Source: Mantamonas sphyraenae STR306
Taxonomy: Eukaryota; Protista; CRuMs
Reading direction: 5' to 3'
Length of the DNA stretch: 64,000 nucleotides
NCBI GenBank assembly: GCA_026936335.1
Contig: JAPMXV010000073.1
Coordinates: 1 to 64,000 of the forward strand
The notes under the pieces are model-generated. The model saw only the letters and a list, made by a program, of their open reading frames with translations, was not told the DNA's origin and did not search any database. Within the stretch, counting starts at the first letter, position 1; each line of letters starts with the position of its first letter. The translations under genes and the position numbers were made by a program. Of the stretch, positions 5,113 to 60,947 are shown in pieces.

Positions 5113-5142
5113 ACCACCCTTTCATTCCCACACCCTTCCCAC

Positions 5143-5333: not shown

Positions 5334-5413
5334 CCTTCAACCAAAGTATCACCAACAACAACCTCCACCAGTCCAACACAATCCACATTCACTCCAGTAC
5401 CGCCACCACCACC

Positions 5414-24250: not shown

Positions 24251-24295
24251 CTTTGCTTGTCCCGAGACCTTGGACGCCGTTGACCCCAAGACAAA

Positions 24296-27190: not shown

Positions 27191-27437
27191 CTCCGACGCG
27201 GTCATTCCTGTCCACAAATCCATCCGACCGACAATCCGCGAGAGGGGCCCTTGGGTGGCCGACAACCAGAACGTAAAGCGAAGCCATGTTCGAGCACGAA
27301 AGCGAGGGGTGGAAACAGTGGGCGGTGGCGTGATCCTTGGGGCACCGCACTTGTTCTTCCACGCATTGTCCCTACCCCCATCCCCCCCTTCCCCTGTGCG
27401 TGTGTGTGTGCAAACGCATGTGTGGATTCTGACACGT

Positions 27438-31805: not shown

Positions 31806-32159
31806 GAATGTTTGTGTCCTCAGTGGTGGCCTTGAATGTGGATTTCCTTTGGCAAAGGCCGAGCTGGCACCACGTCCCAACACAACGATCGACCCCAACA
31901 TTTCATCCACATGGGACTCACGATGACGCTCGCACACTCTTCCGTCGTCTCTTCTCAGCATCTCAGAGAGCACCTTGTGTTTGCTGGATGGCTCCGATCT
32001 GATTCCAAACTCCACACCACCCACCCATGAAGAACGAACCAAGCCAACGACTCAACAACTCAACAAAAGGGGAGAACCAACGCAACAGCATGGACTCTGT
32101 TCCATCGCTGGTCCCTTGGAAAGACACACCACACACCAGAAAAAGTGCGTGATGACCCA

Positions 32160-35100: not shown

Positions 35101-35271
35101 CCGTGTGTCGTCCACCGTCATGTCGTCGGTGTGGCTGGTGAGCTCTTCCGCTGCTCGCATCTTGGCCACCCGCTGACGTTTGGGTGCAGGGGCGGCGTCC
35201 ACAAAGCGGCCATCTTCCTCATCAGCTACATCTTCCTCCTCTCCATCCACCATGCTACGCTTGCGGGACAT
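32160..35271 (-). pseudogene. F-box protein copy 2, with a 5-nt deletion frameshift near 32845
   Basis: Intron 35092-34994. ORFs 32806-35019 and 32160-32834. cagt-cacagg versus cagtaccttcacagg in the paralogs. Confidence 0.8.
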
Positions 35272-35627
35272 GAATGTGTGTCCTCAGTGGTGGCCTTGAA
35301 TGTGGATTTCCTTTGGCAAAGGCCGAGCTGGCACCACGTCCCAACACCACGATCGACCCCAACATTGCATCCACATGGGACTCACGATGACGCTCGCACA
35401 CTCTTCCGTCGTCTCTTCTCAGCATCTCAGAGAGCACCTTGAGTCCGCTGGATGGCTCCCATCTGATTCCAAACTCCAACCCATGAACAGACCACCAACC
35501 CATGAAGAACTAACGAATCCAACGACTCAACAAAACATGGGGGACCAACGCAACAGCATGGACTCTGTTCCATCGCTGGTCCCTTGGAAAGACACACCAC
35601 ACACCAGAAAAAGTGCGTGATGACCCA

Positions 35628-40349: not shown

Positions 40350-40595
40350 TGGCCCGGCCTCTCACGTGCCACTGCACAGCCCATCAGACTCCAGACTCAA
40401 TGACACCCCGCACATGGGTGATTTCCATCCATGGTGTCACCGACAAGACACAAGAATGTGTTTGTGACGCACACAGCGTCGTTTTCCATTTTGGCCAGAT
40501 TTTGGCAGTTTTTGGCAGATTTTGGCAGAATTTGCTCGATTTTGGCTCGGCCATGGCCCGGCCCTTTGGCACCTTTTTTGATTGAACTTTGGCCC
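40350..40595 (+). repeat. Dispersed repeat copy C (5'-truncated) with a 10-bp TTTTGGCAGA array
   Basis: Matches ~26948-27190. Confidence 0.85.
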
Positions 40596-40893
40596 TGCGC
40601 CCGCCACATGCCCGGTTTCCCCCATCTTGTCCGACACAGCTTGCAACAGGTGCTGCACCAGAACAACACATTGCAAGCATGGCACGGCCACTTGATACTC
40701 TTTTGCTGCGTCCGAGGAAGAAAGGTGTTGTGTCGGCCCCACTTTGCTTGCACATTGCCAATCGAGTGAACAAAGGCAATTCCACCGCCACTGCCCATGC
40801 CAGATCTGCGCTCTTGGTGGTGGTTGATGGATGGGGTGTGCCATGCGACGGGTGTGACACAACAACACGAAACACACACACAGTGGGGGAACA

Positions 40894-43022
40894 ATGAGCA
40901 CAATCGCACGGGGCAAGGGCAAGGGCAAGGGCCAGGCAGGCAGCAGCAGCAACACCAACCATGGGATGGGCAGTGCGCATGGTCTGTCCACGGATGGACC
41001 TGACCATTACCTGCAGTCGGAGCGCACAAAGGCGTACGGCCCTCTTTCGCCGCTGCAGGGCAAGGCAGGACCCGACACATCGCCGGCAGTGCGCACGCTG
41101 TATCATGACATGTACAAGAGTGGCCTGTGTACCGATGTGGAGATTGTGCTGGAAGGACTGGATGGGGCGGGTGAGTTGGAGCAAGGGGAAGAAACGAGAA
41201 GCAAAAGCAAAAAGCGGGGCAGCAGAGTGGCACACACACACACACACTGTGGGTTGCTGACACCAAAATGGGGGGAAATTGGATGACGAATGATGACGGG
41301 ACACACCTACCCGACAGATGGGGAGGAGTTGGGAGGAAAGGATGTGGTGCTTCGTGCACACCGTTCGTTTCTGTGTCTGCACAGCGGAATGTGGCGGTAT
41401 CTGCTGGAGGTTGAGGACGGGGCAGCAGCGTCGTCGGGGGCAGCGGTGTGGAACACAGCGGGGAGGATGGACAGGGAGGAGGGATGTTTCGAATGGTGGT
41501 GAAGCGGGGAACACAGAGTGTGGGTGTGTTGCGTGCAATGGAAGTGGCTGTGGGGTGGTGCTACGGCGGTACCCTGCCTGTGACCAACGTGGAGCTGTGT
41601 TACAGTCTGTTGGCCGTGGCACAGTTCTGGCTGATGCCCATGCTGACGGAGCATGTGATGCAGTGGGTGGGACAGGAACATGATGCAGAGACACTGGTGA
41701 GGATGTGTCGTGGGGGCAGTCTCGTGGGGGCCATGGGTGTCGCCGAGGTGGTGCACTCCAATGTGTACCATGCAAGTGTGTTGCGGGTGGCAAAGAAGTG
41801 GGACAAGGTGGCATATGCGGTGAGTTGTGGCATGGTGGCACGTGGGGCGTTTGGGTTTATGCGGGGCTGTGTGTTTGTGGCGATGGTCAAGGTGGCGTTG
41901 GAGCAGCATGGGGAGGAGGGAGTGGACAAGAGGAAGCTGGCACGGGTGGTGGGTGGGTATTTGGACAGTGTGGATGTGGAGGAGATGGTGGAGGCGGAGG
42001 AGGTGGAGTACTTGAGTGCATTGTTGGACGGCGTGAAGCATGACGAGGAGATGGGTTTGCTGAAGGCGGCACTGGCAACAGGTGCGAGTGAGGATGTGGT
42101 GAGAGAATTGTGTGTGTCAATTTCAGACAAGCTGGATGATCTTCGGGAGATGGGCGCGTGAACATGAGCGGGCTGCCGGTGTGGGTGGCAGAGTTGATTC
42201 TGAGTGCCGATGGGATCAAGGTGTGGACCATGAGGACGATGTGCTTGAGATTGTGGAGAGGTATGTAGAGGAACATGATGGGGAGGAGGAGGAGGAAGGG
42301 TGGGAGAGGCGGATGTATGGGTGTGTGCGGTTTGGGTTGTTGAGTCCGGAACGTCTGTACGGGATGAAAGTGGACGGAGAGTGGGACACGCGGTATGTGG
42401 ACTTGGTGGTGTTGACGAATGGTTTGGAAGATGCCCTGAGACTCAAGAGCGGCCAGGAACCAGTCCACAGCAAGAAACGAGAGTTTGGAGAAGCGATTGT
42501 CCCGAGCCTGGACTGGGACCGGGTCGACCAAAGCCGAGGAACATTCACGGAGGAGAGCATGGAGGAGAGTAGAGGGTATTGGACAACATGGATTGGCAAG
42601 AAGAAGCTGCGCTCGGGACAGCGATGGAGCGTGCGTGTGGACCGATTATCCGACGGCATGATCGGAATCTGCAACAGCACCTGTGATCCCAGAAGGAAAT
42701 ACGTTGGTAAGTCATCACATCTCAGAAACACCATACACCGAGTACTGACACCACATGGCTCACAGGCGGCATGCAGGGGAGCTATAGCTGGTACACGTAC
42801 AGCTCGGGTGCAACCACGTTCAGAAATGGAAGTGGAACCAACATTACCACGCGCTTCAAGCAAGGCGACATTGTGACGGTGGAGCTGGACACTACGGCCC
42901 ACACACTGACCTTCTCCCGCAATGGCAATGTCGACGTCACCATCGACAACATTGACGACGACCCATGGTACCCTGCTTTCAGCTGCTACAACTCCAGGAT
43001 GACCATTGTACCCACACCATAG
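40894..43022 (+). pseudogene. BTB-BACK-SPRY protein (Cullin3 adaptor type) with about 3 frameshifts
   Basis: TDVEIV/LRAHRSFL, WCYGG...LLAVAQFWLMPML (BTB). LILSADGIKV-DHEDDVLEIVERY, VRFGLL (BACK). FKQGDIVTVELD, WYPAFS (SPRY). Introns 41171-41317 and 42707-42765. Shifts near 41460, 42160 and 42224. Confidence 0.78.
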
Positions 43023-43685: not shown

Positions 43686-44867
43686 TCATGTGCTGTGCCC
43701 ACCATGTGCCTCCCGCATGTGGTCATACGTGGCCCCACTTGTGGTGAAGCCAAGGCCACACTTGTAGCACACATGGGTGCCACACACACACGCCACATGG
43801 TTGCATCCGCTCTCCTTGGCCAGCCCATGCCCACACGTGGGACACTGCCTCCACCCACTGCCTCGCCACAGCATCCCCAGCAGCTCATCCCCACGTCGGT
43901 TGTCCCTTGCCCACTGCTGGTACTTGCGACAGTCATGGTTGCCCCTTCCGTCGTCATCCCAGTGCACCTTGCACCCGTGGCACCACGCCTTGCCACATCG
44001 CTCACACTCGCATCGTGTGCTGCCCTGTCTCCGTGCCACCGCAGGATCCACCTTGCCCTCGCAGTCTGGCGTCACACACGCATGCCACTTGGCTGTGCGC
44101 ACATCCCATGCCAGCTTGGCCAGCGCCTCCTTGTCCCGCTTGCTCTGCAGCACCCTCATCGCCGTCTTGGTCGACACCCTCACCTCCTTCTTCTTCTGCT
44201 GCCCCTTCCCACCCGCCCAGCACATGCGACAGCGCAGAGGCATCATCCGCGACTCCACCTGCGCTGCAATGTCCATCCTGGCACAGTCCAGACACATCCT
44301 GTGCTCACATCGGGTGCCCAGAAAGGCCATCCCACTCTGCTCCTTGCTCTCCTCGCACACAGCGCAAGGGTAGCAGTGGTGGAACTTGCACTGGTCTCCG
44401 TGCTTGCAATCCTCCCCATGCTTGCACACACGCACTCCCTCGGCCCCACACGCCTTGCATCCTCCCTTGCTCTTGCTCTTGCTCCTGTTCTTGCTCTTGC
44501 TCTTCTCCACCTGTGTCTTGCTGCCTGCCCGTGTGCTCAGTGTCACTGTGCTCCGTCCCATGTGCACCTGTGTCACGCAGTGGTGGTCGCGGCATCGCTC
44601 TGGGCCGTACCGACACTTCTCGCCCCATGTGCAGTTCTTGTCCTTGGTCGTCTTTGCCCTGCATGTCCCACACACCCTCATCCTCCTGGTGCTGCTGCTG
44701 CTGCTGCTCTTGTGCTGTGTCTGCTCCTTGTCTGTGTCTGTGGTGCTGGTGGTTGTGCAGTGGTGGTTGCGACACTCCCCGGGGCCAAATCGGCACCGTG
44801 TGCCCCAGGTGCAGTTCTTCGGCTTGTCCGTCTGTGTTCCGCATGTGTTGCATGTGCGTGTGCTCAT
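43686..44867 (-). CDS. Zinc-finger header(s) + RBR (RING1-IBR-RING2) E3 ligase
   Basis: MSTRTCNTC...CRNHHC, two more related fingers, CAVC...CEHRMCLDC...CRMC, CVTPDC...CERCGKAWCHGCKVHW, QCPTCGHGLAKESGCNHVACVCGTHVCYKC. Confidence 0.87.
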   Translation of the reverse strand: MSTRTCNTCGTQTDKPKNCTWGTRCRFGPGECRNHHCTTTSTTDTDKEQTQHKSSSSSSTRRMRVCGTCRAKTTKDKNCTWGEKCRYGPERCRDHHCVTQVHMGRSTVTLSTRAGSKTQVEKSKSKNRSKSKSKGGCKACGAEGVRVCKHGEDCKHGDQCKFHHCYPCAVCEESKEQSGMAFLGTRCEHRMCLDCARMDIAAQVESRMMPLRCRMCWAGGKGQQKKKEVRVSTKTAMRVLQSKRDKEALAKLAWDVRTAKWHACVTPDCEGKVDPAVARRQGSTRCECERCGKAWCHGCKVHWDDDGRGNHDCRKYQQWARDNRRGDELLGMLWRGSGWRQCPTCGHGLAKESGCNHVACVCGTHVCYKCGLGFTTSGATYDHMREAHGGHST

Positions 44868-45197
44868 CCTGCGATTGAGTTGGTGTGGACATCGCATCGC
44901 CATCCTGGTCGCTTTTCCCTCTGCAGTGAGTGTGTGTGTGCAGTTGCGGAGAGTGCAGTGTTTGTGTGCAGTTGCCGAATTTCCTGGGGCCCTGTTCAAA
45001 AATCCGCCCACCGCCCACTGCCCCCACCCACCCAACCCAACCCAACCCAACCCAACACACACACACAACCATGAGCACACGCACATGCAACACATGCGGA
45101 ACACAGACGGACAAGCCCCAGGACTGCACATGGGGCACACGGTGCCGATTTGGCCCCGAGCAGTGTCGCAACCACCACTGCACAACCACCAGCACCA
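44741..45197. repeat. 127-bp inverted repeat (44741-44867 / 45071-45197) starting at two divergent ATGs; (CCCAA)n in the spacer
   Basis: By eye, the arms differ at about 6 positions. Confidence 0.92.
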
Positions 45198-46096
45198 ACA
45201 CACCCAACACCGCCGCCGCCGCCGCCAAGACGACCAAGGCAAAGCCAGGAAGGAGCATGACCCACCGATCCAGCAAGATCACCACGGAGACGAAGCGAGT
45301 GGCCAAGGCGCCGTTTGACCTGGTCTTCCTGGTCGACACGAGCACGTCCATGCAGGGCGATCGCATGTCTGCAGCCGCCGCTGGGTTCCGCGCCGTTGTG
45401 GGTGCCCTGCGCGATTGCGACCGGGTGAGCCTGTACACCTTTGCGGACAAGGTGAGGAGGGTGTTTGGGCCACTCAAGGCAGCCAAGGTGGATCTGGACA
45501 AGGCGGTGGGCACGCTGGAGGAGGCGTGTGGCAGCCATGGCAGTGGGGTGGAGCAGTTGCTGCAGGCACGGATGACGGATGAGGATCTGGCGAGGGTGTT
45601 GCGGGATCAGGCAGGCAGCAGCGCCTTCCAGCCGGACGGATACACGGCGCTGTACGACGGCATGGACACGGTGATGGACGCCATGGCACAGTGGCAGACA
45701 CGGAGCAACGCAGGAAAGAGTGCAGGCGCCAACCTGGTGGTGATCACCGATGGGGAGGACACGGCGTCGGTGCAGGCTGGGGCCAGGGACGTGACAGCCA
45801 AGCTGGGGGCAAGTGGCATCCGCAACTTTCACATGCACTTTGTGGGAGTGGGGCTGGACAGGAGGACGGGGGCAAGGTATGCCAGCATGTGCAAGGCGTG
45901 GACACACACACGCATGTGGCACAGCAAGGACGCAGAGGATCTGGGCACGCATCTGAAGCGCATCAGCACGATGGTGGTGGAGCAGATGGTGCAGGAGGAC
46001 AGGGAGGTCAAGGTGCATGTGCGCGAGCGACGCAGGCGCAAGGTGATTGGCCAGCGAAGGGTCAAGGACGATGGGGAGGGCAGTGGGAGGAAGTGA
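45071..46096 (+). CDS. Zinc-finger header + von Willebrand A domain protein
   Basis: MSTRTCNTC header. MIDAS motifs FLVDTSTSM, GYTALYDGM, LVVITDGED. Confidence 0.87.
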   Translation: MSTRTCNTCGTQTDKPQDCTWGTRCRFGPEQCRNHHCTTTSTNTPNTAAAAAKTTKAKPGRSMTHRSSKITTETKRVAKAPFDLVFLVDTSTSMQGDRMSAAAAGFRAVVGALRDCDRVSLYTFADKVRRVFGPLKAAKVDLDKAVGTLEEACGSHGSGVEQLLQARMTDEDLARVLRDQAGSSAFQPDGYTALYDGMDTVMDAMAQWQTRSNAGKSAGANLVVITDGEDTASVQAGARDVTAKLGASGIRNFHMHFVGVGLDRRTGARYASMCKAWTHTRMWHSKDAEDLGTHLKRISTMVVEQMVQEDREVKVHVRERRRRKVIGQRRVKDDGEGSGRK

Positions 46097-46270
46097 AGAA
46101 ATGCAGGAGAATGGCACACACATTCATGCAGAGAGGTAGAGAGAGAGGAGGAAGAGGTGGTGTCTATTTGGACACTTGCAATGGGTACGGATGGGCATGT
46201 GTGTGGAGATGGAAAACTGGGGTTGCGCCAATCGCCACACACACGCGCCCCAAATGGCAGGGTGAACACA

Positions 46271-48178
46271 TCACCTTACCTCTGAGCACTCGTGCGACTT
46301 GCCGCCCGGTGGATCGCCCACCCACGCCCGTGTCACTCCAGCCGGATCGAAATAAACGGCACGTGGTGGTTGGGAAACGGCACTCGTTTGCGGTAGAGCT
46401 CCTTTCGGAGAACAGGCGCGTTGACACACTTTGGAAAACCCAGCTGCCCGGAAGCACTTTCGCCGTTTGCCAAGCTTGGGAACGTCCAATGACAGCACCA
46501 CCCATCGATTGTACGTTTTGATGCCTGTCGACACGTGGAGACCCTTGCTCTTGCGCAGAGAGCGCACCTCCTCGCTCAGTGCGTCCAACCTGCTCCATGC
46601 TCGCTGCACCTCCTGGAGCACAGGCGCCTTGGCCGCACACTCGCCCAATTCCTTCCTCACTGTGTCTGGGAGCTTCCCGATGGAAAGGCGCGCATCCAGC
46701 ACGTCCTTCCACAAACGACGCATCTGCGGCAACTTGGCCTTGAGCTGCTTCAGGCTCTTGAGCGTCTTTGGCAGATCGATCACCGTCTTGATCATCTGGT
46801 CCACCTGCGTGATGCCCTGATGATGCCTTCAATGGTCTCCAGGTCCGTCTTGTCCACCGCCGCCACTGCCTTTTTCACAGCCAAGATGTTTGCAGAGATG
46901 GCTCGGATCGCCCCACCTGCCTGCTGCAGCACGTCCATGAATCCCACCACCGACTTGTTCACAGCACCCAAGGCACCGTCTCGCTTCTGTGCCACGCTTC
47001 CCTTGCAGCTGGCAGCAGCCACTTCACCGGGCAGGCGAGCAGGCACAGTTTTCAGCGCCGTCACAAGGCCCTGCACTGCCTCAGACGCACGCTCATACAT
47101 CGCATGCAGCGGATCCAACACCTTGCTGAATCCAGACTTGATCGTTTCGCCTGCGCTTTGCAGGTATGCGATGTAAAACTGCGCCACCGTAGCACAGCCA
47201 GCGCCCAGACTTGCCACGCACACAGCCACACGCACGCTCAGGTCCTGGTACGCCGCCAAGCCCAACTCGGGCAGCTCGATGGTCCAAGCGAATAGTCCGC
47301 GACGCTTGGGGCGGATGATGGAAGCCAGAGCCTGTGCCTTGTTGTCCTGCACGTTGAAACCTTGGGTCAGTGCACACTCGGTCAGCTGCGTCAACAACTT
47401 GGTGGGCATCACATCGCCTCCGCTGGACATTGTTTCCCTGATGTTGACCTGCTTGAGCACGGGTAGACACTTGCAGGCCGCCACCAGAGGCGTCAACATG
47501 TGCGGCGGGCACAGACTCGTCTTGCGCTTGCGAATGGTCAAGCCGCACGGAGAGTGCACGTGTTTGCGTGTCTTGCACGACACGGGTACGTGGGTGCACA
47601 CACGCTTTCGTGAGTGGCACCCTGAGCACCGGCACTTTGTCGACACACTTTTCCTGCTCCTGCAGCGGTCCCACTTTTTCCACGACACCCACTTTTTGCG
47701 CAAACAACGCGAGCAGCGGCACTTTGTCTTGACCGTCTTGCGTGTCTTGCATCGCGTCGGCTGGTTCCAGCACCTCTTTCGCCGCAGAACGCGCTTGCAG
47801 CGGCGTTCCATCCCTGGGACACACACCCTTTTCGAGCACGTTCGACAACCCGGCACGCACACTTTGCGCCGTCCTTTCCGGAACCCAGGCACGCACACGC
47901 GTTTGGAACACGAATGGCATCCGAAAACGCATACTTGCGTACACTTGAGAATGTTGCCAGGCACACACACGCTCTTGTCACAGTGTTTCACGCTCGCCGA
48001 CGATGGAACCGAGCGCTGACGGGGCGCAAACTCGTGCAGCCGCTCCATCGCACATCGCGGCAAACTCGGACACGTCCGCGTCTGCGTCGACCACTTCCTC
48101 GCTTTGGCACAAACACGTGTGTGCGATCGTCAGGAGGATCGCCACCATCAACGCGCTTCGCAGCGCACCCGCTTGCAT
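46271..48178 (-). pseudogene. Secreted-type Cys/Lys/Arg-rich repeat protein with helical C-terminus, frameshifted
   Basis: Signal-like MQAGALRSALMVAILLTIAHTCLC, repeats CSKRVCVPG. Pieces in ORFs 47978-48412, 46792-48063 and 46271-46804. Confidence 0.55.
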
Positions 48179-48670
48179 CGTGGGTTTTGTTGGGCATCCC
48201 ACAGCCAAACATTGCAACAGCTGATCCCATGGAGCCCATGCATGCGGTTCATTGCATGACACATGTGCCTGTGCATTGTCCACGTGGATCGAGTGGGTGG
48301 AACAAGCAGATGGCTTTGGCCACGATGATGGGTTTGTTGAACGGCCAATTGGGATCGAGATTGAGTCGCAGGATGGCGGGGAACAACAATGGGAACCATT
48401 GTGGATGACCATGGATGAGGGAATATCAGCAGCTGCGGTGCGCAGTGGGGACTACGCTTATCCTTTCACCCGTGGGTTTCATGGAGGGAGGGCTTCATTG
48501 AGAGTTGTGGAGAAAGACACACGCAGAGAGAGAGAGTGTGTGTGTGTCTTCAGTGACGTACAGGGGGTGGTGAGGTCGGGAAGGGTCATTGTGTGTGGCC
48601 AAAAACCCTCTCGCGTCACACTTGATCTTGCGCTGCTTGCTCACGCGGCCGACGTACAGACACGTTCAAG

Positions 48671-50632
48671 ATGAGTGAAGGACTGAGCGATGAGGAATGG
48701 ATAAATTTGCTGCATGGCGGTGATGAGCAAGCAATCAGTGAAGCCTTGGCAAGTGCTGGCAAAGTAAGTGTGGTGGATTTGAGGAGCATCCCTTCCGTGA
48801 TGAGGTCATGAGTGGCAGTAGACTGGGAAACTGACGGCACATCGCAGGAGCTGGACCTCGAGGACATCATGATCGGTGTCGAAGGTGCAGCTGCGTTGGG
48901 CACAGCACTGGCACAGAACAGCACATTGCAGAAGCTGTACCTCAGTCACAACAAGATCGGCGACGAAGGGGCAGCTGCGTTGGGAACGGGACTGGCACAA
49001 AACAGACCATTGCAGGAGCTGGACCTCAGAGGCAACCAGATTGGCGACGAAGGGGCAGCTGCGTTGGGAACGGGACTGGCACAGAACAGCACATTGCAGG
49101 AGCTGGACCTCAGAGGCAACCAGATTGGCGCCGAAGGGGCAGTTGCGTTGGTCACGGGACTGGCACAGAACAGCACATTGCAGAAGCTGTACATCAGTTA
49201 CAACAAGATCGGCGACGAAGGGGCAGCTGCGTTGGGAACGGGACTGGCACAAAACAGAACATTGCAGGAGCTGGACCTCAGAGGCAACCAGATTGGCGCC
49301 GAAGGGGCAGTTGCGTTGGTCACCGGACTGGCACAGAACAGCTCATTGCAGGTGCTGAACCTCAATGACAACAAGATCGGCGACGAAGGGGCAGCTGCGT
49401 TGGTCACGGGACTGGCACAAAACAGAACATTGCAGGAGCTGTACCTCGGAGGCAACCAGATTGGCGCCGAAGGGACAGCTGCGTTGGCCACAGCACTGGC
49501 ACAGAACAGAACATTGAAGGAGCTGGCCCTCGGTGGCAACAAGATCGGGGACGAAGGGGCAGCTGCGTTGGGAACGGGACTGGCACAGAACAGCACATTG
49601 AAGACGCTGGACCTCAGGAACAACCAGATTGGTGCCGAAGGGGCAGCTGCGCTAGGCAGAGTACTGGCACAGAACAGCACATTGCAGAAGCTGGACCTCA
49701 ACCACAACGAGATCGGGGACGAAGGGGCAGCTGCGTTGGCCACAGTACTGGCACAGAACAGTACATTGCAGGTGCTGGACCTCAACCACAACGAGATCGG
49801 GTACGAGGGGGCAGCTGCATTGGGCACAGCACTGGCACAGAACAGAACATTGCAGGTGCTGGACCTCAACCACAACGAGATCGGGGACGAAGGGGCAGCT
49901 GCGTTGGGCACAGTACTGGCACAGAATAGCACCTTGCAGAAGTTGAACCTCAACCACAACGAGATCGGGGACGAAGGAGCAGCTGCGTTGGGAACGGGAC
50001 TGGCACAGAACAGAACATTGCAGACATTGTGGATGTCTTCCTCGATCCCAAAGCTGACACGCAACAATCTGGCTCGCAATACCCAAAAGGCAACTGCCTT
50101 TGTCAACTCTGTCCGCAATGGTGATTTGGTGACCATGCAAGAACTCTTTGCATGGGGCGTTCATGTTGATGCGCTGGTGGACAAAGAACATTCCAAAACC
50201 CCGCTGCTAATCGCTGTTCAAGCAAATCAAGAAAAAGCTGCGAGAGCCTTGTTGGAGCATGGTGCCACTGTGACCCCTGATGTCAGGGAATGGATGGATG
50301 ATGTGGGCTGGTCAAGCGAGTGGCACTTTCTCTGGAGCCCACAGCTGGACAAGCAAATGGAGACGGCCATGGTGATGAACATGGAGGAGCGGGAAGTGAT
50401 GTTTGGCGCAGGGAGCATGGCCGAGTACGAGCCCACGGCTGAGTGGTGCACCCAGCCTGACGAGGTGTTATCGAGGGTCATGGGATGGCTGATACGACTG
50501 CCTGAGGAGCAGTCATCGACGCCAGCTGGTGGCAATCAAGCACGCAAGCGCCAGCTCGATGACGACGACGACGTAGTCAACACTACAGGCAACAATACCA
50601 GCACGAACGATACCAAACGGCAGCGTGTGTAG
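48671..50632 (+). CDS. LRR (14) + ankyrin + C-terminal F-box-like protein
   Basis: Exon 1 at 48671-48763 (MSEGLSDEEWINLLHGGD), intron 48764-48847. KTPLLIAVQANQEKAARALLEHGA, WCTQPDEVLSRVMGWL, ends KRQRV. Confidence 0.88.
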
Positions 50633-51249
50633 GCAATGTCTCTTTGCAAGCAGTCACACTTTGTGTTCTGTGCTCTCTTCCAGGACTGTAGCACATGGCA
50701 AGCGTTGGCTGGGATGTGGAAATGTGGAAGTGGTGTGTGGCTGGGGTCGACGACCGGAAAGACGACGGAAGATTGCGCGGAGCTCCTGCTCTGCCACCGT
50801 ACGCACGCAGCAAGGTGGAATACACCAGGGAGGCACATGGTATCATGCACAGTATGGGACGGGAACACGTGCCAGCAGGTTTGGCATGTTGTGGTGACAC
50901 CCGGGGCAGCGTCAACTTCTGCCAGAAACTGTGCCCTGCGCAGCGTGTATGTGCAGATACAACCCCAACGAACAGAGCCAAATGGTCATGGGCATGCACA
51001 CACACACACGAATCACCGCACATTGTGTGTGGTTGCATCGAGGACGACGCAGCAGTGGGGTGGGAATTCCACCCTTGGATTGCGACTGCATGCCGGGAAG
51101 ACCCCGTGGTTGTTGCGATCCCGATGCATGCAGTTTGCCAACACACTGTACTTGATGGTGATTCCACTGGCAAGAATGACAGTGGTACAACACAGCACAC
51201 AAAGAGCAAGAGAGACCACACCACAACCCAACACACCCAACCGCAAGAG

Positions 51250-51588
51250 ATGAGCACACGCGTTTGCCAGACTTGCCACCAGACCACAGACCGAACCCAG
51301 GATTGTCGCTATGGCCAGCGATGCCGGTATGGAGCCGAGCGATGCCGGTTCCACCACTGCCACCACCACCACCACCGGTCACGATGGAGTGGTGAGCACA
51401 GCCACCGGACGCAGCCGCAGCAGCAGCAGCAGCAGCAGAGACACACGAAGAAGCAGCGGGAGAAGAAGCAGGAGGCAGGAGACGAGGAGCAGGCAGAGGG
51501 AGCCATGACCGAGCAGCTGATGCAGGTGGTCGTCACCGTCAGCACAGCTGTGGTCACCAGCATCCTCCGATCACGCGGATGGATCTGA
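51250..51588 (+). CDS. Small zinc-finger-header protein (112 aa) with hydrophobic C-terminal helix
   Basis: MSTRVCQTCHQTTDRTQDCRYGQRCRYGAERCRFHHC...QVVVTVSTAVVTSILRSRGWI. Confidence 0.7.
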   Translation: MSTRVCQTCHQTTDRTQDCRYGQRCRYGAERCRFHHCHHHHHRSRWSGEHSHRTQPQQQQQQQRHTKKQREKKQEAGDEEQAEGAMTEQLMQVVVTVSTAVVTSILRSRGWI

Positions 51589-52732
51589 GCCCACCTGCCC
51601 CCCCCCTGGACGACACACGTGGAGGAGGAGAGGAGAAGGAGAGACTGGGAGAGACATGGAAGAGAGAAGTGAGCGGGTGAGATGACATTCTCTCTTTTTA
51701 TCCCTTTTGCTTGTGTCTTGGTTCCCCGCACCACCCCCAATGTGTGGCAATGACACCAATCAAGAGATGCAAAAGAAAGAACCCACCCACAGATGTGTGC
51801 GTGGGGTGGGTTGGTGTGTGTGTGTGTGTCGGTGCTGGTCATGGTGGATCACCATCCATTGTCTCGGGCCATCCGCTGCAGAGCTCGCACCAGCTGCACT
51901 CGGTCATCCCCCGACGCTCGCCCAGGGTCGATGTGGGCGTTGGCCAGAAAGGCGCGGTTGCCTCGGGCCAGGTTGGGAGCTCCGTCTGCGTTGATGGCCA
52001 TCCACCGGTAGTCACCGCCGGTGGTCCAGGGCATGTTGTGTGTGTTTGCTGTGGGTTGGGGTTGGGTAAGCGGGGTGCGCTAGTGTCATTGTGGGTCCCA
52101 TGGTGCCATTTTGTACCCGGCAGGTGCCACCCACATGCTTCTGGGATCGCAGCCATGGCATTCTCGGTGTGCAGTCTCCCATCGACCTCCACCGCCAGAA
52201 TTCCTGATTCCCCACACCGCACCCGCCAGTCGACGAGAACGGACACATGGGTGGCATGGGATGGTCTCATACGACGCTTGTGTTCCATGGAAGCCCATTC
52301 ATGCGGTTCATTGCAGGACACATGTGCGTGTGCATTGTCCAGGTGGATCGAGTGGGTGGAACAAGGAGTTGACTTTGGGCACGACGATGGGGTTCTTGAA
52401 CGGCCAATTGGGCGCGGGATTGAGTCGCACGTTGGCGGGGAACAACAATGGGAACCATTGTGGATGACCATGGATGAGGGAATATCAGCAGCTGCGGTGC
52501 GCAGTGGGGACTACGCTTATCCTTTCACCCGTGGGTTTCATGGAGGGAGGGCTTCATTGAGAGTTGTGGAGAAAGACACGCAGAGAGAGTCTGTGTGTGT
52601 GTGTGTGTTCAGTGACGTACAGGGGGTGGTGAGGTGGGGAAGGGTCATTGTGTTTGGCCAAAAACAACCCTCTCGCTCCACCCTTCGTCTTTGGCTGCTT
52701 GCTCACGCTGCCGACGTACAGACACGTTCAGG

Positions 52733-54184
52733 ATGAGTGAACGATTGATCAAGGAGGAATGGAGAAAGTTGCTGCATGGCGGTGATGAGCAAGCTATCAG
52801 TGAAGCCCTGGAACGTGCTGGCAAAGTATGTGTGTTGGATTTGAGGGGCATCCCTTCCATGGTGAGGTCATGAGTGGCAGCAGACTGGGAAACTGACAGC
52901 ACAATGCAGGAGCTGAACCTCCAACGCAACCAGATCGGGGACGAAGGGGCAGCTGCGTTGGGCACAGCACTGGTACAGAACAGCACATTGCAAGTCCTGA
53001 AGCTCGGAGGCAACGAAATCGAGGACCAAGGGGCGGCTGTATTGGGCACAGCACTGGCACAGAACAGCACAGTGCAGGTTCTGGAGCTCAATGGCAACCT
53101 GATCGGGGACGAAGGGGCAGATGCGTTGGCCACAGCACTGGCACAGAACAGCACCTTGCAGGTGCTGAGCCTCGGTGGAAACCTGATCGGGGACGAAGGG
53201 GCGGTTGCGTTTGGTTCGGAGCTGGCACAAAGCAGCACATTGCAGAAGCTGGTGCTTAATTACAACCAGATCGGGGACGAAGGGGCAGCTGCGTTGGGAA
53301 CGGGACTGTCACACAACAGTACATTGCAGGTACTGGAGCTCAGTGGCAACGAGTTCGGGTACGAGGGGGCAGCTGCATTGGGCACAGCACTGGCACAGAA
53401 CAGAACATTGCAGGTGCTGGAGCTCATGGACAGCCAGATTGGCGACGAAGGGGCAGCTGCGTTGGGCACAGCACTGGCACAGAACAGAACATTGCAGATG
53501 CTGAACCTCTTGAACAATCAGATTGGGGACGAAGGGGCAGCTGCGTTGTTCACCGGACTGGCACAGAACAGAACATTGCAGAAATTGCTGATTCCCTCTA
53601 TCCCATCGCTGACACGCAGAAATCTGGCTCGCAATACCCAAAAGGCAACTGCGTTCGTCAACTCTGTCCGCAATGGTGATTTGGTGACCATGCAAGAACT
53701 ATTTGCATGGGGCGTCCACGTTGATGTGCTGGTGGGCGAGGAACGTTTGATCACCCCGCTGCTGATCGCTGTTCAAGCAAATCAAGCAAAAGCCGCGAGA
53801 GCCTTGTTGGAGCATGGTGCCACTGTGACCCCTGCTGTCAGGGAATGGATGGATGATGTGGGCTGGTCACCCCAGTGGCACTTTCTTTGGAGCCCACAGC
53901 TGGACAAGCAAGTGGAGACGGCCATGGTGATGAACATGGAGGAGCGGGAAGTGATGTTCGGCGCAGGGAGCATGGCCGAGTACGAGCCCACGGCTGAGTG
54001 GTGCACCCAGCCTGACGAGGTGGTAACGAGGGTCATGGGATGGCTGATACGACTGCCTGAGGACCAATCACCGACGCCAGCTGGTGGCAATCAAGCACAC
54101 AAGCGTCAGCACGACGACGACGACGTAGTCCACACTACAGGCAACGATACCAGCATGCACGATACCAAACGACATCGTGTGTAG
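52733..54184 (+). CDS. LRR (8) + ankyrin + C-terminal F-box-like protein
   Basis: Exon 1 at 52733-52825, intron 52826-52909, in frame with ORF 52874-54184. Confidence 0.88.
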
Positions 54185-54803
54185 GCAAAGTCTCTTTGCA
54201 AGCAGTCACACGTTGTCTTCTGTGCTCCATTTTCCAGGAGTGTAGCACATGGCAAGCGTTGGTTGGGATGTTGCAATGTGGAAGTGGTGTGTGGCTGGTG
54301 TGGACGACCAGAAAGACGCCGGAAGATTGCGCGGGGCTCCTGCTCTGCCACCGTACGCACGCAGCAAGGTGGAATCCTCCAGGGAGGCAGATGGTATCAT
54401 GCACAGTATGGGACGGGAACACGTGCCAGCAGGTTTGGCATGTTGTGGTGACACCCGGGGCAGCGGCAACTTCCGCCAGGTTCAGTGCCCTGCGCTGCGT
54501 ATTAGCGCAGATACAACACCAACGAACAGAGCCAAATGGTCATGGGCATGCACACACACACACGAATCACCGCACATTGTGTGTGGTTGCATCGAGGACG
54601 ACGCAGCATTTGGGTGGGAATTCCACCCTTGGATTGCGACTGCATGCCGGGAAGACCCCGTGGTTGTTGCGATCCCGATGCATGCAGTTTGCCAACACAC
54701 TGTACTTGATGGAGATTCCACTGGCAAGAATGACAGTGGTACAACACAGCACACAAAGAGCAAGAGAGACCACACCACAACCCAACACACCCAACCGCAA
54801 GAG

Positions 54804-55142
54804 ATGAGCACACGCGTTTGCCAGACTTGCCACCAGACCACAGACCGAACCCAGGATTGTCGCTATGGCCAGCGATGCCGGTATGGAGCCGAGCGATGCC
54901 GGTTCCACCACTGCCACCACCACCACCACCGGTCACGATGGAGTGGTGAGCACAGCCACCGGACGCAGCCGCAGCAGCAGCAGCAGCAGCAGAGACACAC
55001 GAAGAAGCAGCGGGAGAAGAAGCAGGAGGCAGGAGACGAGGAGCAGGCAGAGGGAGCCATGACCGAGCAGCTGATGCAGGTGGTCGTCACCGTCAGCACA
55101 GCTGTGGTCACCAGCATCCTCCGATCACGCGGATGGATCTGA
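54804..55142 (+). CDS. Small zinc-finger-header protein, same protein sequence as 51250-51588
   Basis: Identical translation. Confidence 0.7.
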   Translation: MSTRVCQTCHQTTDRTQDCRYGQRCRYGAERCRFHHCHHHHHRSRWSGEHSHRTQPQQQQQQQRHTKKQREKKQEAGDEEQAEGAMTEQLMQVVVTVSTAVVTSILRSRGWI

Positions 55143-56308
55143 GCCCACCTGCCCCCCCCCTGGACGACACACGTGGAGGAGGAGAGGAGAAGGAGAGACT
55201 GGGAGAGAGATGGAAGAGAGAAAGTGAGCGGGTGATTCTCTCTTTTTATCCCTTTTGGCTTGTGTCTTGGTTCCCCGCACCACCCCCAATGTGTGGCAAT
55301 GACACCAATCAAGAGATGAAAAAAAAAAAAGAAAGAACCCACCCACAGATGTGTGCGTGGGGTGGGGTAGGGTGTGTGTGTGTGTCGGTGCTGGTCATGG
55401 TGGATCACCATCCATTGTCTCGGGCCATCCGCTGCAGAGCTCGCACCAGCTGCACTCGGTCATCCCCCGACGCTCGCCCAGGGTCGATGTGGGCGTTGGC
55501 CAGAAAGGCACGGTTGCCTCGGGCCAGGTTGGGAGCTCCGTCTGCGTTGATGGCCATCCACCGGTAGTCACCGCCGGTGGTCCAGACTCGGGCGCGTCGC
55601 TGTCGCTCGTTGGGCATCTTGTGTGTGCTTGCTGTGGGTTGGGGTTGGGTAAGCGGGGTGCGCTGGTGTCATTGTGGGTCCCATGGTGCCATTTTGTACC
55701 CGTCAGGTGCCATCCACATGCTTCTGGGATCGCAGCCATGGCTTTCACGGTGTGCAGTCTCCCATCGACCTCCACCGCCAGAATTCCTGATTCCCCACAC
55801 CGCACCCGCCAGTCGACGAAAACGGACACTTGGATGGTATTGGATGGTCCCACACGACGCATGTGTTCGATGGGAGCCCATGCATGTGGTTCATTGCATG
55901 ACACATGTGTCTGTGCATTGTCCAGGTGGATCGGGTGGGTGGAACAAGGAGATGGCTTTGGCCACGACGATGGGTTTGTAGAACGGCCAATTGGGCGCGG
56001 TGTTGAGTCGCAGGATGGCGGGGAACAACAATGGGAACCATTGTGGATGACCATGGATGAGGGAATATCAGCAGCTGCGGTGCGCAATGGGGACTACGCT
56101 TATCCTTTCACCCGTGGGGTTCATGGAGGGAGGGCTTCATTGAGAGTTGTGGAGAAAGACGCACTGAGAGAGAGTGTGTGTGTGTGTTCAGTGACGTACA
56201 GGGGGTGGTGAGGTCGGGAAGGGTCATTGTGTTTGGCCAAAACCCCTCTCGCGTCACACTTGATCTTTGGCTGCTTGCTCACGCGGCCGACGTACAGGCA
56301 CGTTCAGG

Positions 56309-58640
56309 ATGAGTGAAGGACTGAGCGATGAGGAATGGAGAACGTTGCTGCATGGCGGTGATGAGCAAGCCATCAGTGAAGCCTTGGCAAGTGCTGGCAA
56401 AGTATGTGAAGACATGAGGGCATCCCTTCTGTGGCTTGAGAGTGGCAGTGGACTGGGAAACTGACAGCACATTGCAGGAGCTGGACCTCAGCTACAACAA
56501 GATCGGCGACGAAGGGGCAGCTGCATTGGGTACAGCACTGGCTCAGAACAACACATTGCAGGAGCTGAACCTCCGTTTCAACCAAATCGGCGACGACGGG
56601 GCAGCTGTATTGGGCGCAGGACTGGCACAGAACAACACATTGCAGGAGCTGAACCTTGGACTCAACAGGATCGGCGGCGAAGGGGCAGCTGGGTTGGGAA
56701 GAGGACTGGCCCACAACAGAACATTGAAGGTGCTGAATCTCATGAGCAACCAGATGTGGGACGAAGGAGCAGCTGGGTTGGGCACAGGACTGTCACAGAA
56801 CAGCACATTGCAGGAGCTGGACCTCGGTGACAACCAGATCGGGGATGAAGGGGCAGCTGCGCTGGGAACAGGGCTGGCACAGAACAGTACATTGCAGGTA
56901 CTGGTGCTCGGACGCAACAAGATCGGGAACAAAGGAGCATCTGCGTTTGGCACAGCACTGGCACAGAAGAGCACAGTGCAGGTGCTGGAGCTCTGGAACA
57001 ACCTGATCCGGGTCGAAGGGGCGGTTGCGTTGGCCACAGCACTGGCACAGAACAGCACATTGCGGGAGCTTACCCTCAAGGAGAACCAGATCGGGGACGA
57101 AGGGGCAGCAGCGTTGGGCACAGGACTGGCACAGAACAACACGTTGGAGGTGCTGATCCTCCAGGACAACCAGATTGGCGATGAAGGGGCAGCTGCGCTG
57201 GGAACAGCGCTGGCACAGAATAACACGTTGGAGGTGTTGATCCTCCAGGACAACCAGATTGGCGATGAAGGGGCAGTTGCATTGGGAACAGGACTGGTAC
57301 AGAGCAGCACATTACAGGTGCTGGAGCTCAGGAACAACAAGATTGGCGCCGACGGGGCAGTTGCATTGGGCACAGCGCTGGCACAGAACAACACGTTGGA
57401 GGTGCTGATCCTCCAGGACAACCAGATTGGCGATGAAGGGGCAGCTGCGCTGGGAACAGGGCTGGTACAGAGCAGCACATTACAGGTGCTGGAGCTCAGG
57501 AACACCAAGATTGGCGCCGCAGGGGCAGTTGCATTGGGCACAGCGCTGGCACAGAACAACACGTTGGAAGTACTGAACCTTAGGCGCAACCAGATCGGCG
57601 ATGAAGGGGCGACTGTGCTTGGCACAGAACTGGCACACAGCAGCACATTGCGGCAGATGGACCTCAGTTACAACCAGATCGGCGACGAAGGGGCAGCTGC
57701 ATTGGCCATAGGACTGGGAAAGAACAACACATTGGAGGTGCTGTACCTCAGAGGCGAGTTGATCCGGGACGAAGGGGCAGCTGCGTTGGGCACAGCACTG
57801 GCAGAGAACAGCACATTGCAGGAGCTGTACCTCGGTGACACTCTGATCGGCGACAGAGGGGCAGCTGCGTTGGGCACAGCACTGGCACAGAACAGCTCAT
57901 TGCAGGTACTGGAGCTCAAGAACAACAAGTTTGGCGACAGAGGGGCAGCTGCGTTGGGCACGGCACTGGCAGAGAACAGCACATTGCAGGAGCTGTACCT
58001 CGGTGACACTCTGATCGGCGACAGAGGGGCAGCTGCGTTGGGCACAGCACTGGCAGAGAACAGCTCATTGCAGGTACTGGAGCTCAAGAATAACACGATC
58101 GGCAAAGTAGGGGCAGCTGCGTTGGGCACAGCACTGGTACAGAACAGAACATTGCAGAAATTGCGGATGTCTTTCTCGATACCTCGCATGCCACGCCACA
58201 ATCTGGCTCGCAATACCCAAAAGGCAACTGACTTTGTCAACTCTGTCCGCAATGGTGATGTGGTGACCATGCAAGAACTCCTTGCATGGGGCGTTCATGT
58301 TGATGCGCTGGTGGGCGGGGAACATCCAACCACCCCGTTGCTGATCGCTGTTCAAGAACATCAAGAAAAAGCGGCGAGAGTCTTGTTGGAGCATGGTGCC
58401 ACTGTGACCCCTCGTGTCAGAAAACGGATGGATGAACTGGGCTGGTCACCCCGGTGGCACTTTCTTTGGAGCCCACAACTGGACAAGCAAATGGAGACGG
58501 CCATGGTGATGAACATGGAGGAGCGGGAAGTGATGTTTGGCGCAGGGAGCATGGCTGAGTACGAGCCCACGGCTGAGTGGTGCACCCAGCCTGACGAGGT
58601 GTTAACGAGGGTCATGGGATGGCTGGCACGACTACCATAG
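56309..58640 (+). CDS. LRR (20) + ankyrin + C-terminal F-box-like protein, tail cut short by TAG
   Basis: Exon 1 at 56309-56401, intron 56402-56477, in frame with ORF 56436-58640. Confidence 0.88.
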
Positions 58641-58787
58641 GAGCAGTCATTGGCCAGCTGGTGGCAATCGGGCACGCAAGCGCCAGCACGACGACGATGA
58701 CGACGTATACAGGCAACGATACCAGCACGCACGACACCAAACGGCAAACAAAACTACCATCCACACGACCAACCCATCCAACAAGCG

Positions 58788-59964
58788 ATGAGCACACGCG
58801 TTTGCCAATCTTGCCACCAGACAACAGACCGAGCCCAGGATTGCCATTTTGGCGAGCGATGCCGCTTCGGCCCCGAACGATGCCGCTACCATCACTGCTA
58901 CCACCGGCGTGGATGGCAAAGTGAGTGCAAACACCGCATGGAGCACCAAAGCTACAAGGAGTGGCAGATGGAGCAGCCCTGGCGACGGAAGCAGGATCAG
59001 CGAGCACAGGACAACGAGCGGGAGGCACAGGACACCGAGCAGGCAAGGAAGATCCAGCTGCTGTATGAGGCTCCCAATGGCCGCACCGGTGCCATTCTCC
59101 TCACAGAGAACAGCACCATCGCCACGCTGCACACATCACTTGCTGACCGCGTGAGGATTCCCGAGGACAGGCTGTGGATGACACACCATGGGAAGCCGCT
59201 GCGTCCGTCGACATCGATATCAATCCACGACTACAACATCGATGAGGGAAGCATCGTCCGCATCATGCTGCGCAACTCGTGGCACCACGAGCCGCATGAC
59301 ACCGCGGAGACAGAGACAACCACGACACCGGCAGCCACACAATTCACATGTCCAATCTGCGACGACGACGAGGTCGACCCGTCCACCGAGGCCACGGCGA
59401 TGGGATGTGGTCACAGGTTCTGCCACCAGTGCTGGTCGAAACACATCGAGGCACGCCTGGGCGAGGCACCGCAGATCCGCTGTCTCGAGAGTGGCTGCGG
59501 AATGGTGGTGGACAGTGGTACGGTGAGCCGTGTAGCAGATCAGGAGCTGTGTGACCGCTACGAGCACATCTGCCTCGGCAAGGCTCTGGACGAGCTGGGA
59601 TTGCTGTACTGCGCCAACACAGAGTGCAGCAACGCCTTTGAGGCCGACGCTGGCGACAGCTACGTCTCCTGTGCCGCCTGTGGACACAAGCACATGTGTG
59701 TCATGTCGTGCAGCGTGGCACACCGGGATGACATGTGCTGAGGCCAGGGATGCATCGTCCATCCAGGAGGTGGCATCCCTGAAGACCATTGCCCAGACGA
59801 CAAAGGCATGTCCCGAGTGCAACACACGCATCGAGAAGAACGGTGGGTGCAAGCACATGACGTGCAAGAAGTGTCAGCACGAGTTCTGCTGGGGCTGTTT
59901 GCAGCCATACACACGCACAGCAAGAGGTCTCAGTGTACAATGTCTGGACACGTGTACAGTGTAG
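58788..59964 (+). CDS. Zinc-finger header + ubiquitin-like + RBR (Ariadne-like) E3 ligase; frameshift near 59690
   Basis: Header MSTRVCQSC. Ubl TIATLH...[15 protein letters not shown]...[16 protein letters not shown]1 CPIC...[13 protein letters not shown]2 [32 protein letters not shown] lies in ORF 59551-59964. Confidence 0.82.
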
Positions 59965-60947
59965 CACAGGAGCAGTGAGGAGGAAATGGTGTGTCTGGCT
60001 GCGGATGGAAGAGAGAATGGAGCGGGTGAGATGATGCATTCTCTCACTTGTTGTCACTCTTGCTTGTGTCTTGTTCCTCCGCACCCTCATGTGTGGCAAT
60101 GACACCAACCAAGGTATGAAAAAAGAAAGAACCCACCCACAGATGTGTGCGTGGGGTGGGTTAGGGTGTGTGTGTGTGTGGGTGCTGGTGCTGGTCATGG
60201 TGGATCACCATCCATCCAAGCAGACGTGGAAGTCCTCGCTCCACTCCTCAGCCGCCCCTCCTGGCCGATGCCCACGGTGGACGTGGGCACTGGACAGGTT
60301 GGGTCGTCCGCCTGCGTTGGTGCTCCTGCTCCGGTCTCCACCGCTGGTGGACCAGGATGGGGCGTGTCGCTGTCGCTGGTTGGGCATCTTGTGTGTGTTT
60401 GCTGTGGGTTGGGGTTGGGTAAGCGGGGTGCGCTGGTGTCATTGTGGGTCCCATGGTGCCATATTGTACCCGGCAGGTGCCACCCACGTGCTTCTGGGAT
60501 CGCAGCCATGGCTTTCTCGGTGTGCAGTTGCCCCTCGACCTCCACCGCCAGAATTCCTGATTCCCCACACCGCACCCGCCAATCGACGACAACGGACACA
60601 TGGGTGGCATGGGATGGTCTCACACGACGCATATGTTCCAAGGGAGCCCATGCATGCGGTTCATTGCATGACACAAGTGCCTGTGCATTGTCCAGGTTGG
60701 TCGGGGGGTGGAAGCAGACAAGTGTTGCCACCGCCATGTCCCTTTGTGCACCACCACCCTCTCCCCCTTGACGCTGCCTCTGTGCAGTGAATACACTGCA
60801 CATGGCGGTCACTCACATGTGCCTGCACACAAGGCTGCACATGCAGTGTGTGTGAGTGCAGTCGACTGTGCCCAGATGAACTTAAATAGGATCCAAGCGA
60901 CCTCCCGCCGCGACAAACCGACCATCCCAACCCATCCAACCCAATCC

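What the first reader, a model, noticed from the sequence alone, without database searches (positions are those of the whole stretch)
43686..59964. Portable MSTRxC zinc-finger header fused to interchangeable effector domains
Seen: a ~37-aa module MSTR-x-C-x2-C-x9-C-x5-C-x6-C-x2-HHC starts five genes: RBR E3 (44867-, with two further internal fingers), vWA (45071+), two short hydrophobic-tail proteins (51250, 54804) and Ubl-RBR (58788). Established: the C-x5-C-x6-C-x3-H core resembles Nab2-type CCCH RNA-binding fingers, and CxYGxxC resembles PBZ. The extra CxxC and final C give 8 possible ligands. Inference: a shuffled sensor or targeting module linking a common ligand (RNA or ADP-ribose) to ubiquitination, with the short forms as possible decoys or adaptors.
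Basis: partly seen in the sequence, partly recalled or inferred. Interest (0 to 1): 0.8.

Follow-up and report, generated by a model that had tools for sequence, protein, structure and literature searches.

The report
Double-zinc CCCH header on ubiquitin ligases
In what is likely an intron-poor microbial eukaryote, a small zinc finger resembling known RNA-binding CCCH fingers, with four extra conserved residues predicted to hold a second zinc, sits at the front of two distantly related ubiquitin ligases and a vWA protein, where it likely steers them to RNA or RNA-bound targets.

Summary
The module is real: 7 copies in 5 genes, 8 invariant Cys/His and 2 invariant Gly, none in 80 simulated windows, fewer amino-acid than silent changes between copies. 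Its core is a short CCCH finger of the ZC3H12/Regnase style (aromatic-Gly after C1 and C2), not Nab2-type and not PBZ. The extra CxxC and final H-x-C are as conserved as the core and appear in none of 40 database hits; no relative of the whole module was found. 'Interchangeable effectors' is overstated: there are three independent partners (RBR-A, vWA, Ubl-RBR-B). The two short genes are identical tandem copies and sister paralogues of Ubl-RBR-B that keep finger and linker but lack Ubl and RBR. One clean header transfer is visible: a 127-nt inverted copy, 95% identical, from the ATG to just past the finger. Ubl-RBR-B is frameshifted in the window, but two sequencing runs lack the extra base. 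Best reading (0.5): a lineage-specific, probably two-zinc CCCH variant acting as the RNA-targeting module of RBR E3 ligases, spread by local duplication. Zinc number, ligand and expression are untested. New variant of a known kind.

The parts
43686..44867 (-). RBR-A: three fingers followed by RING1-IBR-RING2 (catalytic C355-x-H357) and a short C-terminal C2H2-like tail, 393 aa from the MSTR start
44757..44867 (-). finger 1 of RBR-A (header; left arm of the inverted repeat 44741-44867)
44577..44687 (-). finger 2 of RBR-A (internal)
44373..44474 (-). finger 3 of RBR-A (internal, C-x2-C-x7-C-x5-C-x5-C-x2-HHC, His at both stacking positions, abuts RING1)
44868..45070 (.). 203-nt spacer between the divergent RBR-A and vWA starts (loop of the inverted repeat)
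45071..46096 (+). finger-vWA gene, 341 aa; header 45071-45181 is the right arm of the inverted repeat (45071-45197); vWA domain from about aa 83 with a DxSxS motif
48869..50632 (+). LRR-ankyrin gene, tandem unit 1 (neighbour; carried with the finger gene)
51250..51588 (+). short finger gene 1, 112 aa: finger, linker homologous to that of Ubl-RBR-B, 17-aa moderately hydrophobic tail
52904..54184 (+). LRR-ankyrin gene, tandem unit 2
54804..55142 (+). short finger gene 2, identical to gene 1 (339 of 339 nt)
56742..58640 (+). LRR-ankyrin gene, tandem unit 3
58788..59964 (+). Ubl-RBR-B: finger (58788-58898), linker, Ubl (aa 90-162), ARIH1/2-like RING1-IBR-RING2; frame broken near 59688 in the window, unbroken in runs X1 and X2

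Best explanation
A 37-residue CCCH zinc finger of the short ZC3H12/Regnase style, extended by four conserved residues predicted to bind a second zinc, heads two distantly related RBR ubiquitin ligases and a vWA protein, and likely serves as an RNA-binding targeting module. Step 1 (shown in sequence): C19-x5-C25-x6-C32-x3-H36 with aromatic-Gly pairs after C19 and C25. Step 2 (inferred): C6, C9, H35 and C37 close a second zinc site that staples the N-terminal CxxC hairpin to the end of the finger, making a self-contained domain that can be copied in front of other domains. Step 3 (inferred from ZC3H12C): aromatics 21 and 27 stack on single-stranded RNA bases. Step 4 (follows from RBR chemistry, untested here): the RBR modules take ubiquitin from an E2 onto the RING2 Cys and pass it to proteins brought in by the finger, as RNA-binding ubiquitin ligases do. 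Step 5 (shown in DNA): the module spread locally by internal triplication in RBR-A, by an inverted copy between RBR-A and the vWA gene, and by tandem duplication of an LRR-ankyrin + finger-gene unit, in which a short form without Ubl and RBR stands in two units and Ubl-RBR-B in the third. The short form would compete for the same ligand without ubiquitinating, but that is speculation.
For: Core: best PDB sequence match is the Regnase-1 (ZC3H12A) finger, E 3.6e-4, profile positions 14-36; Pfam zf-CCCH_4 in 4 of 6 members, best E 0.0041; PMC8136824 section 18 names aromatics in C1-X5-C2 and C2-X5-C3 plus two glycines as the ZC3H12 RNA-binding signature: glycines 7 of 7, W/Y/F at both positions 6 of 7. 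Extra ligands: 4 of 4 invariant against 0 of 27 other non-core positions, Fisher p 3e-5, while silent sites are near saturation (pS 0.54-0.82, pN 0.26-0.34 between distant copies); short vs Ubl finger pS 0.42, pN 0.09, p 0.0004. AlphaFold2 on 6 sequences gives an N-terminal hairpin and a helix at 29-35, mean pLDDT 69. Ligase cores: RBR-A C355 aligns with the RNF216 position that reads Ala in 7m4n and Cys in 7m4m; Ubl-RBR-B matches ARIH1/ARIH2 (E 3e-11, 1e-12); the two RBR cores barely align (best E 0.011), so the finger sits on two separate RBR lineages. CCCH plus E3 domain in one chain is a known design (PMC5707401 passages). Transfer: inverted arms 127 nt, 95%, beginning at the ATG, with no similarity beyond.
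Against: No binding, zinc or expression data. Spacing is x6, not the ZC3H12 x5, in 6 of 7; Pfam scores stay under the curated cut-off (13.9 vs 24.6 bits). RBR-A finger 3 has His at both stacking positions. ZC3H12 fingers work together with a PIN domain, absent here, and single short CCCH fingers may bind RNA weakly. The structure models are poor (pTM 0.35 and 0.18) and cannot place the zinc ligands; the only fold hits are short, non-significant zinc-knuckle/treble-clef hairpins (E 1.9 or worse). Between the window and the X1/X2 contigs Ubl-RBR-B differs at 11 non-synonymous and 3 synonymous codons, no different from neutral (p 0.77), and the window's copy is frameshifted.
Confidence: 0.5

Rival explanations
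1. The module is a protein-binding zinc finger (substrate, ubiquitin or self-association), possibly cross-braced like treble-clef fingers (C6/C9/C32/H36 as one site), and the CCCH look is a repurposed or partial resemblance; the short form would be a homotypic decoy.
For: It sits on E3 ligases and a vWA domain, both protein-handling; weak Foldseek rows are L24e/TRASH, PHD and RING hairpins (E 1.9-9, 15-18 aligned columns in most); stacking aromatics are replaced by His in RBR-A finger 3 and the third aromatic is missing in 3 of 7. N-terminal ubiquitin-binding zinc fingers on RBR ligases are known (recalled, no call).
Against: The aromatic-Gly pairs and the C-x3-H end match RNA-binding short CCCH fingers in PDB and in 15 of 16 library hits; the copies are basic (K+R 5-11 against D+E 2-4); fold hits are not significant and the wide structural search gave nothing at Z 2 or more.
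Confidence: 0.25
2. Mostly a by-product of a duplication-prone region: one working finger-RBR gene, with the vWA header an accidental capture of a start segment by fold-back duplication and the short genes and the frameshifted Ubl-RBR decaying leftovers.
For: All copies lie within 15 kb of tandem and inverted repeats; the short genes are truncated sisters of Ubl-RBR-B; neutral-like differences between the window and X1/X2 in Ubl-RBR-B; no further partners among the loose ends shown (19 of 24 rows).
Against: All eight ligands survive in every copy despite near-saturated silent sites; changes between short and Ubl fingers include three conservative Tyr/Phe swaps, and 3 silent changes fall on the short branch by outgroup; the vWA frame is intact with strong codon bias; X1 and X2 lack the extra base at 59688.
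Confidence: 0.17
3. The finger is a PBZ-like poly(ADP-ribose) reader that couples ADP-ribosylation to ubiquitination, as in CHFR.
For: C-x-[FY]-G-x-x-C is shared with the PBZ consensus, and PBZ on an E3 ligase has precedent (PMC4936651 passages).
Against: PBZ uses two Cys and two His; here the third ligand is Cys in 7 of 7 and the His follows three residues later; no PBZ family among the six Pfam families hit at E up to 10.
Confidence: 0.08

Closest known systems
ZC3H12/Regnase CCCH finger (PDB 2n5k; PMC8136824)
   Same: Short C1-x5-C2 spacing, aromatic-Gly after C1 and C2, C3-x3-H end; best PDB sequence hit.
   Different: C2-C3 is x6 in 6 of 7; added N-terminal CxxC and C-terminal H-x-C; no PIN nuclease; fused to RBR, Ubl-RBR and vWA instead.
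Nab2/ZC3H14 CCCH fingers (PF14608; PMC6371209)
   Same: Short spacing; aromatic after C1 and after C3 in 3 of 7 copies; weak Pfam hit in 2 of 6 (E 0.066).
   Different: Nab2 lacks the two glycines, which are invariant here; Nab2 works as tightly packed tandem fingers.
RNA-binding ubiquitin ligases with CCCH fingers (MKRN1/2; PMC5707401)
   Same: CCCH finger and E3 domain in one chain.
   Different: Those named in the passages read carry RING domains with CCCH; here RBR modules of two lineages and a finger with an extra ligand set.
RBR E3 ligases (ARIH1/2, RNF216, parkin-like Ubl-RBR; PMC9834252)
   Same: RING1-IBR-RING2 with catalytic Cys-x-His in both genes; Ubl before RBR as in parkin (parkin layout recalled).
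   Different: N-terminal fingers of this kind; Ubl-RBR-B ends after RING2 with no Ariadne domain.
PBZ finger (APLF, CHFR; PMC4936651)
   Same: C-x-aromatic-G-x-x-C start.
   Different: Third ligand Cys, not His; His spacing differs.

Membership tests
CCCH zinc finger (general) | C-xn-C-xn-C-x3-H ligand pattern | tested here: met
   C19, C25, C32, H36 in 7 of 7
CCCH zinc finger (general) | Pfam CCCH family score above curated cut-off | tested here: inconclusive
   zf-CCCH_4 E 0.0041 at best for single fingers; 13.9 bits vs cut-off 24.6 for RBR-A
CCCH zinc finger (general) | zinc bound by these four residues; RNA binding | not testable with these tools
   models too poor to place ligands
ZC3H12/Regnase-type finger | C1-X5-C2-X5-C3-X3-H spacing | tested here: not met
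   exact in 1 of 7 (RBR-A finger 3); x6 in 6 of 7
ZC3H12/Regnase-type finger | aromatic and glycine in both C1-C2 and C2-C3 loops | tested here: met
   Gly 7 of 7; W/Y/F at both positions 6 of 7
ZC3H12/Regnase family | PIN ribonuclease domain in the same chain | tested here: not met
   no PIN hit in any of the genes
Nab2-type finger | no glycines in the loops; aromatics after C1 and C3 | tested here: not met
   both glycines invariant; aromatic after C3 in 4 of 7
PBZ finger | two Cys and two His, consensus ending H-x3-[FY]-x-H | tested here: not met
   third ligand Cys in 7 of 7; no PBZ family
RBR E3 ligase | RING1-IBR-RING2 with catalytic Cys in RING2 | tested here: met
   Ubl-RBR-B only when read across the break, which X1 and X2 lack
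RBR E3 ligase | ubiquitin transfer activity | not testable with these tools
   needs an E2-Ub discharge assay
RNA-binding ubiquitin ligase | RNA-binding domain and E3 domain in one protein | tested here: inconclusive
   architecture fits; RNA binding of the finger is inferred only

The most novel reading that the evidence does not exclude
An undescribed binuclear zinc finger, a CCCH RNA reader nested inside a C2HC clasp, acts as a portable foreign-RNA sensor that this protist has bolted onto two RBR ligase lineages and a vWA protein within a fast-evolving LRR/ubiquitin defence cluster, with ligase-less short copies tuning the response as decoys.
Probability: 0.2. Interest if true: 0.72.

Novelty: new variant of a known kind. 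Interest (0 to 1): 0.42.

Why it matters
If the second zinc site is real it adds a nested two-zinc architecture to the CCCH class, small enough for a quick NMR structure. The locus also catches domain shuffling in the act: a header copied from the ATG to the end of the finger, and the same finger on two separate RBR lineages, which suggests repeated selection for coupling one ligand to ubiquitination. Its reach is limited for now: no relative outside this organism was found, and nothing about ligand or expression is shown.

Tried and rejected
Relatives of the whole module, none found: word search with vWA residues 1-45, no candidate among proteins of 187-597 aa; profile A3 against longer proteins, 24 hits of 78 candidates, all carrying ordinary CCCH Pfam families and plant names; HMMER over 1.84 billion representatives, 16 hits, 15 multi-CCCH proteins plus one repetitive protein, none matching profile positions 1-6; 0 of these 40 proteins has the upstream CxxC or the terminal H-C. 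DNA pattern of the eight ligands: 91 metagenome and 2 viral loci, mostly Cys-run or stop-containing frames, best 12.2 bits; 0 in prokaryote genomes with the glycines added; 1 viral match to the core pattern, in a frame full of stops; 2 viral loci from the profile, both rejected as a wrong-frame or short chance match. These patterns miss intron-split or differently spaced relatives, and eukaryotic coverage of the collections is limited. ESM Atlas: rows at 0.76 only, and no usable hit for the three-finger region. RBR-A core search: 223 candidates, none at E 1e-5. vWA: no PDB sequence hit at E 0.01. Structure: Foldseek nothing at E 0.001, wide VIA search nothing at Z 2, single-sequence model of the three fingers pLDDT 47. 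A homodimer-with-zinc prediction could not be run because the queue was full. No RNA holder listed. No whole genome is held, so copies elsewhere could only be glimpsed through loose ends. Earlier scan findings: none. Papers: a search for the spacing strings gave 1 listing, a spider-venom paper, not read; searches for CCCH-RBR fusions in protists or fungi gave no listing whose title or abstract start describes this; the 2007 RBR family review was not held; I recall fungal and plant RBRs with RNA-binding N-terminal domains but could confirm only the helicase-RBR subfamily (PMC2904391 passages). Tail of the short form as a remnant of the Ubl hairpin: it falls at that place in the pairwise alignment but the last 30 aa alone are not significant (1367 of 5000 shuffles). 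Tail as a membrane anchor: Kyte-Doolittle 1.99 over 17 aa but an unfavourable summed insertion estimate of +2.05 (scale values recalled); left open. Finger tree uninformative (supports 53-74).
Full report
Setting. The window (GC about 55-63%) holds long uninterrupted frames for a HECT ligase, a protein kinase, SPRY and LRR-ankyrin proteins, so it is read as an intron-poor eukaryote; that is inference. No whole genome is held. Three DNA runs of one study hold about 70% of the sampled words, and no RNA holder is listed.

Observation. Ten columns are invariant in the six distinct copies: C6 C9 C19 G22 C25 G28 C32 H35 H36 C37. The pattern is found 7 times in the window and never in 80 simulated windows; there is no eighth copy. 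The third RBR-A finger is shorter (x7, x5, x5). The MSTR starts are inferred: RBR-A and both short genes are open to earlier ATGs, but similarity between copies begins exactly at the ATG, the RBR-A extension scores as non-coding, and the short genes' extension has no significant coding signal (P 0.26).

It is selected as protein. Between distant copies pS is 0.54-0.82 and pN 0.26-0.34; short vs Ubl-RBR finger pS 0.42, pN 0.09 (Fisher p 0.0004). The four ligands outside the CCCH core are 4 of 4 invariant against 0 of 27 other positions (p 3e-5). The copies are related, so these p values are indicative only.

What the core is. The profile's best PDB sequence match is the Regnase-1 finger (2n5k, E 3.6e-4, positions 14-36). 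PMC8136824 (passages and section 18 read) describes the ZC3H12 finger as C1-X5-C2-X5-C3-X3-H with base-stacking aromatics in the first two loops and two glycines that Nab2 lacks. Here both glycines are in 7 of 7 and W/Y/F at both stacking positions in 6 of 7; the C2-C3 loop is one residue longer in 6 of 7. So C19, C25, C32 and H36 are most simply the CCCH site. Nab2 features (PMC6371209 passages) fit less well, and the PBZ consensus (PMC4936651 passages) fails at the third ligand. That leaves C6, C9, H35 and C37, which would make a second site enclosing the first. This is inferred: AlphaFold2 gives a hairpin at the CxxC and a helix at 29-35 with pLDDT 69 and pTM 0.35, and no fold match.

How far it reaches. 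All searches returned the CCCH core only or chance: 16 hits among 1.84 billion representatives, 24 of 78 candidates in the 5.8-billion set, none of the 40 with the extra ligands; 93 DNA-pattern loci all scoring 12.2 bits or less; 0 in prokaryote genomes. The full module is therefore unmatched in these collections, which are thin in protists. A paper search for the spacing strings found nothing relevant (listing only).

Partners and history. (1) RBR-A carries three fingers, then RING1-IBR-RING2 with C355-x-H357; nearest PDB sequences are RNF216 and ARIH1. (2) The vWA gene faces away from RBR-A across 203 nt; the two headers form a 127-nt inverted repeat, 95% identical, from the ATG to five codons past the finger, with nothing shared beyond. 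This is one clean, recent copy or conversion of the header; its direction is not known. (3) An LRR-ankyrin + finger-gene unit is repeated three times from about 48.2 to 60.7 kb. Units 1 and 2 hold the short gene, identical over 339 nt; unit 3 holds finger-Ubl-RBR, ARIH1/2-like. The short protein shares not only the finger but the following linker with Ubl-RBR-B (E 3e-4; 0 of 5000 shuffles, against 630 and 2489 of 5000 for the vWA and RBR-A controls) and the same 3' flank, so it is a sister that lacks Ubl and RBR rather than a separate fusion. The two RBR cores hardly align, so the finger has joined two RBR lineages. Independent partners: three.

Independent DNA evidence. In runs X1 and X2 one contig spans 58770-60027 with a base left out at 59688, which removes the window's frameshift; the window's copy is an assembly error or a broken allele. 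The short-gene contig has about twice the depth of the Ubl-RBR contig in both runs (115 vs 61, 157 vs 78), consistent with two collapsed copies, though the tool warns that depth is no copy number. Loose ends at the finger are only the known short-gene and vWA flanks (19 of 24 rows shown). Against a strongly constrained gene, the X1/X2 contigs differ from the window in Ubl-RBR-B by 11 non-synonymous and 3 synonymous codons, not distinguishable from neutral; three of those codons are in the finger and none touches a ligand.

Mechanism. Most likely (0.5) the finger binds single-stranded RNA through the ZC3H12-type aromatics and brings the RBR ligases to RNA-bound proteins, the design of RNA-binding ubiquitin ligases (PMC5707401 passages), with two-step RBR chemistry as in PMC9834252 (passages). 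Rivals: a protein-binding or self-associating finger (0.25), duplication debris around one working gene (0.17), a PAR reader (0.08). Tandem expansion of RBR genes has precedent in plants (PMC2904391 passages). A defence role is suggested only by the LRR and ubiquitin-rich neighbourhood.

Verdict. It works like a short CCCH finger on an E3 ligase; it fails strict membership of ZC3H12, Nab2 and PBZ; the extra ligand set is unmatched. New variant of a known kind, interest 0.42. No supplements were consulted.

Noticed in passing
window 28446-38405 (-): Tandem family of large proteins (992, 663+224, 925 aa) with no Pfam hit for the two scanned; their N-terminus looks F-box-like by eye (recalled pattern).
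   Followed up: partly
window 789-9015 (+): Tandem genes made of long internal repeats with His/Trp/Cys-rich units; no Pfam hit for the 665-aa one.
   Followed up: partly
window 46792-48048 (-): 418-aa protein with Cys-rich CxPG-type repeats and a helical C-terminal part; no useful Pfam hit.
   Followed up: no
window 9286-14081 (-): HECT E3 ligase in several frames (HECT E 6e-60), broken by introns or frameshifts.
   Followed up: no
window 41484-43022 (+): Adjacent frames with weak BACK and clear SPRY hits, probably one BTB-BACK-SPRY gene in pieces, next to RBR-A.
   Followed up: no
window 24118-24254, 26949-27194, 40350-40601: Short dispersed repeat, 75-82% identical, three copies.
   Followed up: no
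window 51656-52600, 55184-56200, 59980-60713, 48222-48640: Conserved segment between finger genes and LRR genes, four partial copies; its minus-strand frame scores as non-coding.
   Followed up: partly
window 45734-46091: Two contigs of run X5, a different study, match the vWA gene with 0 and 1 differences at depth about 3, so a very close relative occurs in another sample.
   Followed up: partly
window 50695-51249 vs 54249-54803: Differences between the tandem units are mostly transversions (19 of 26) and 23 of 26 lie before 50965; the finger gene itself is identical, suggesting recent gene conversion.
   Followed up: partly
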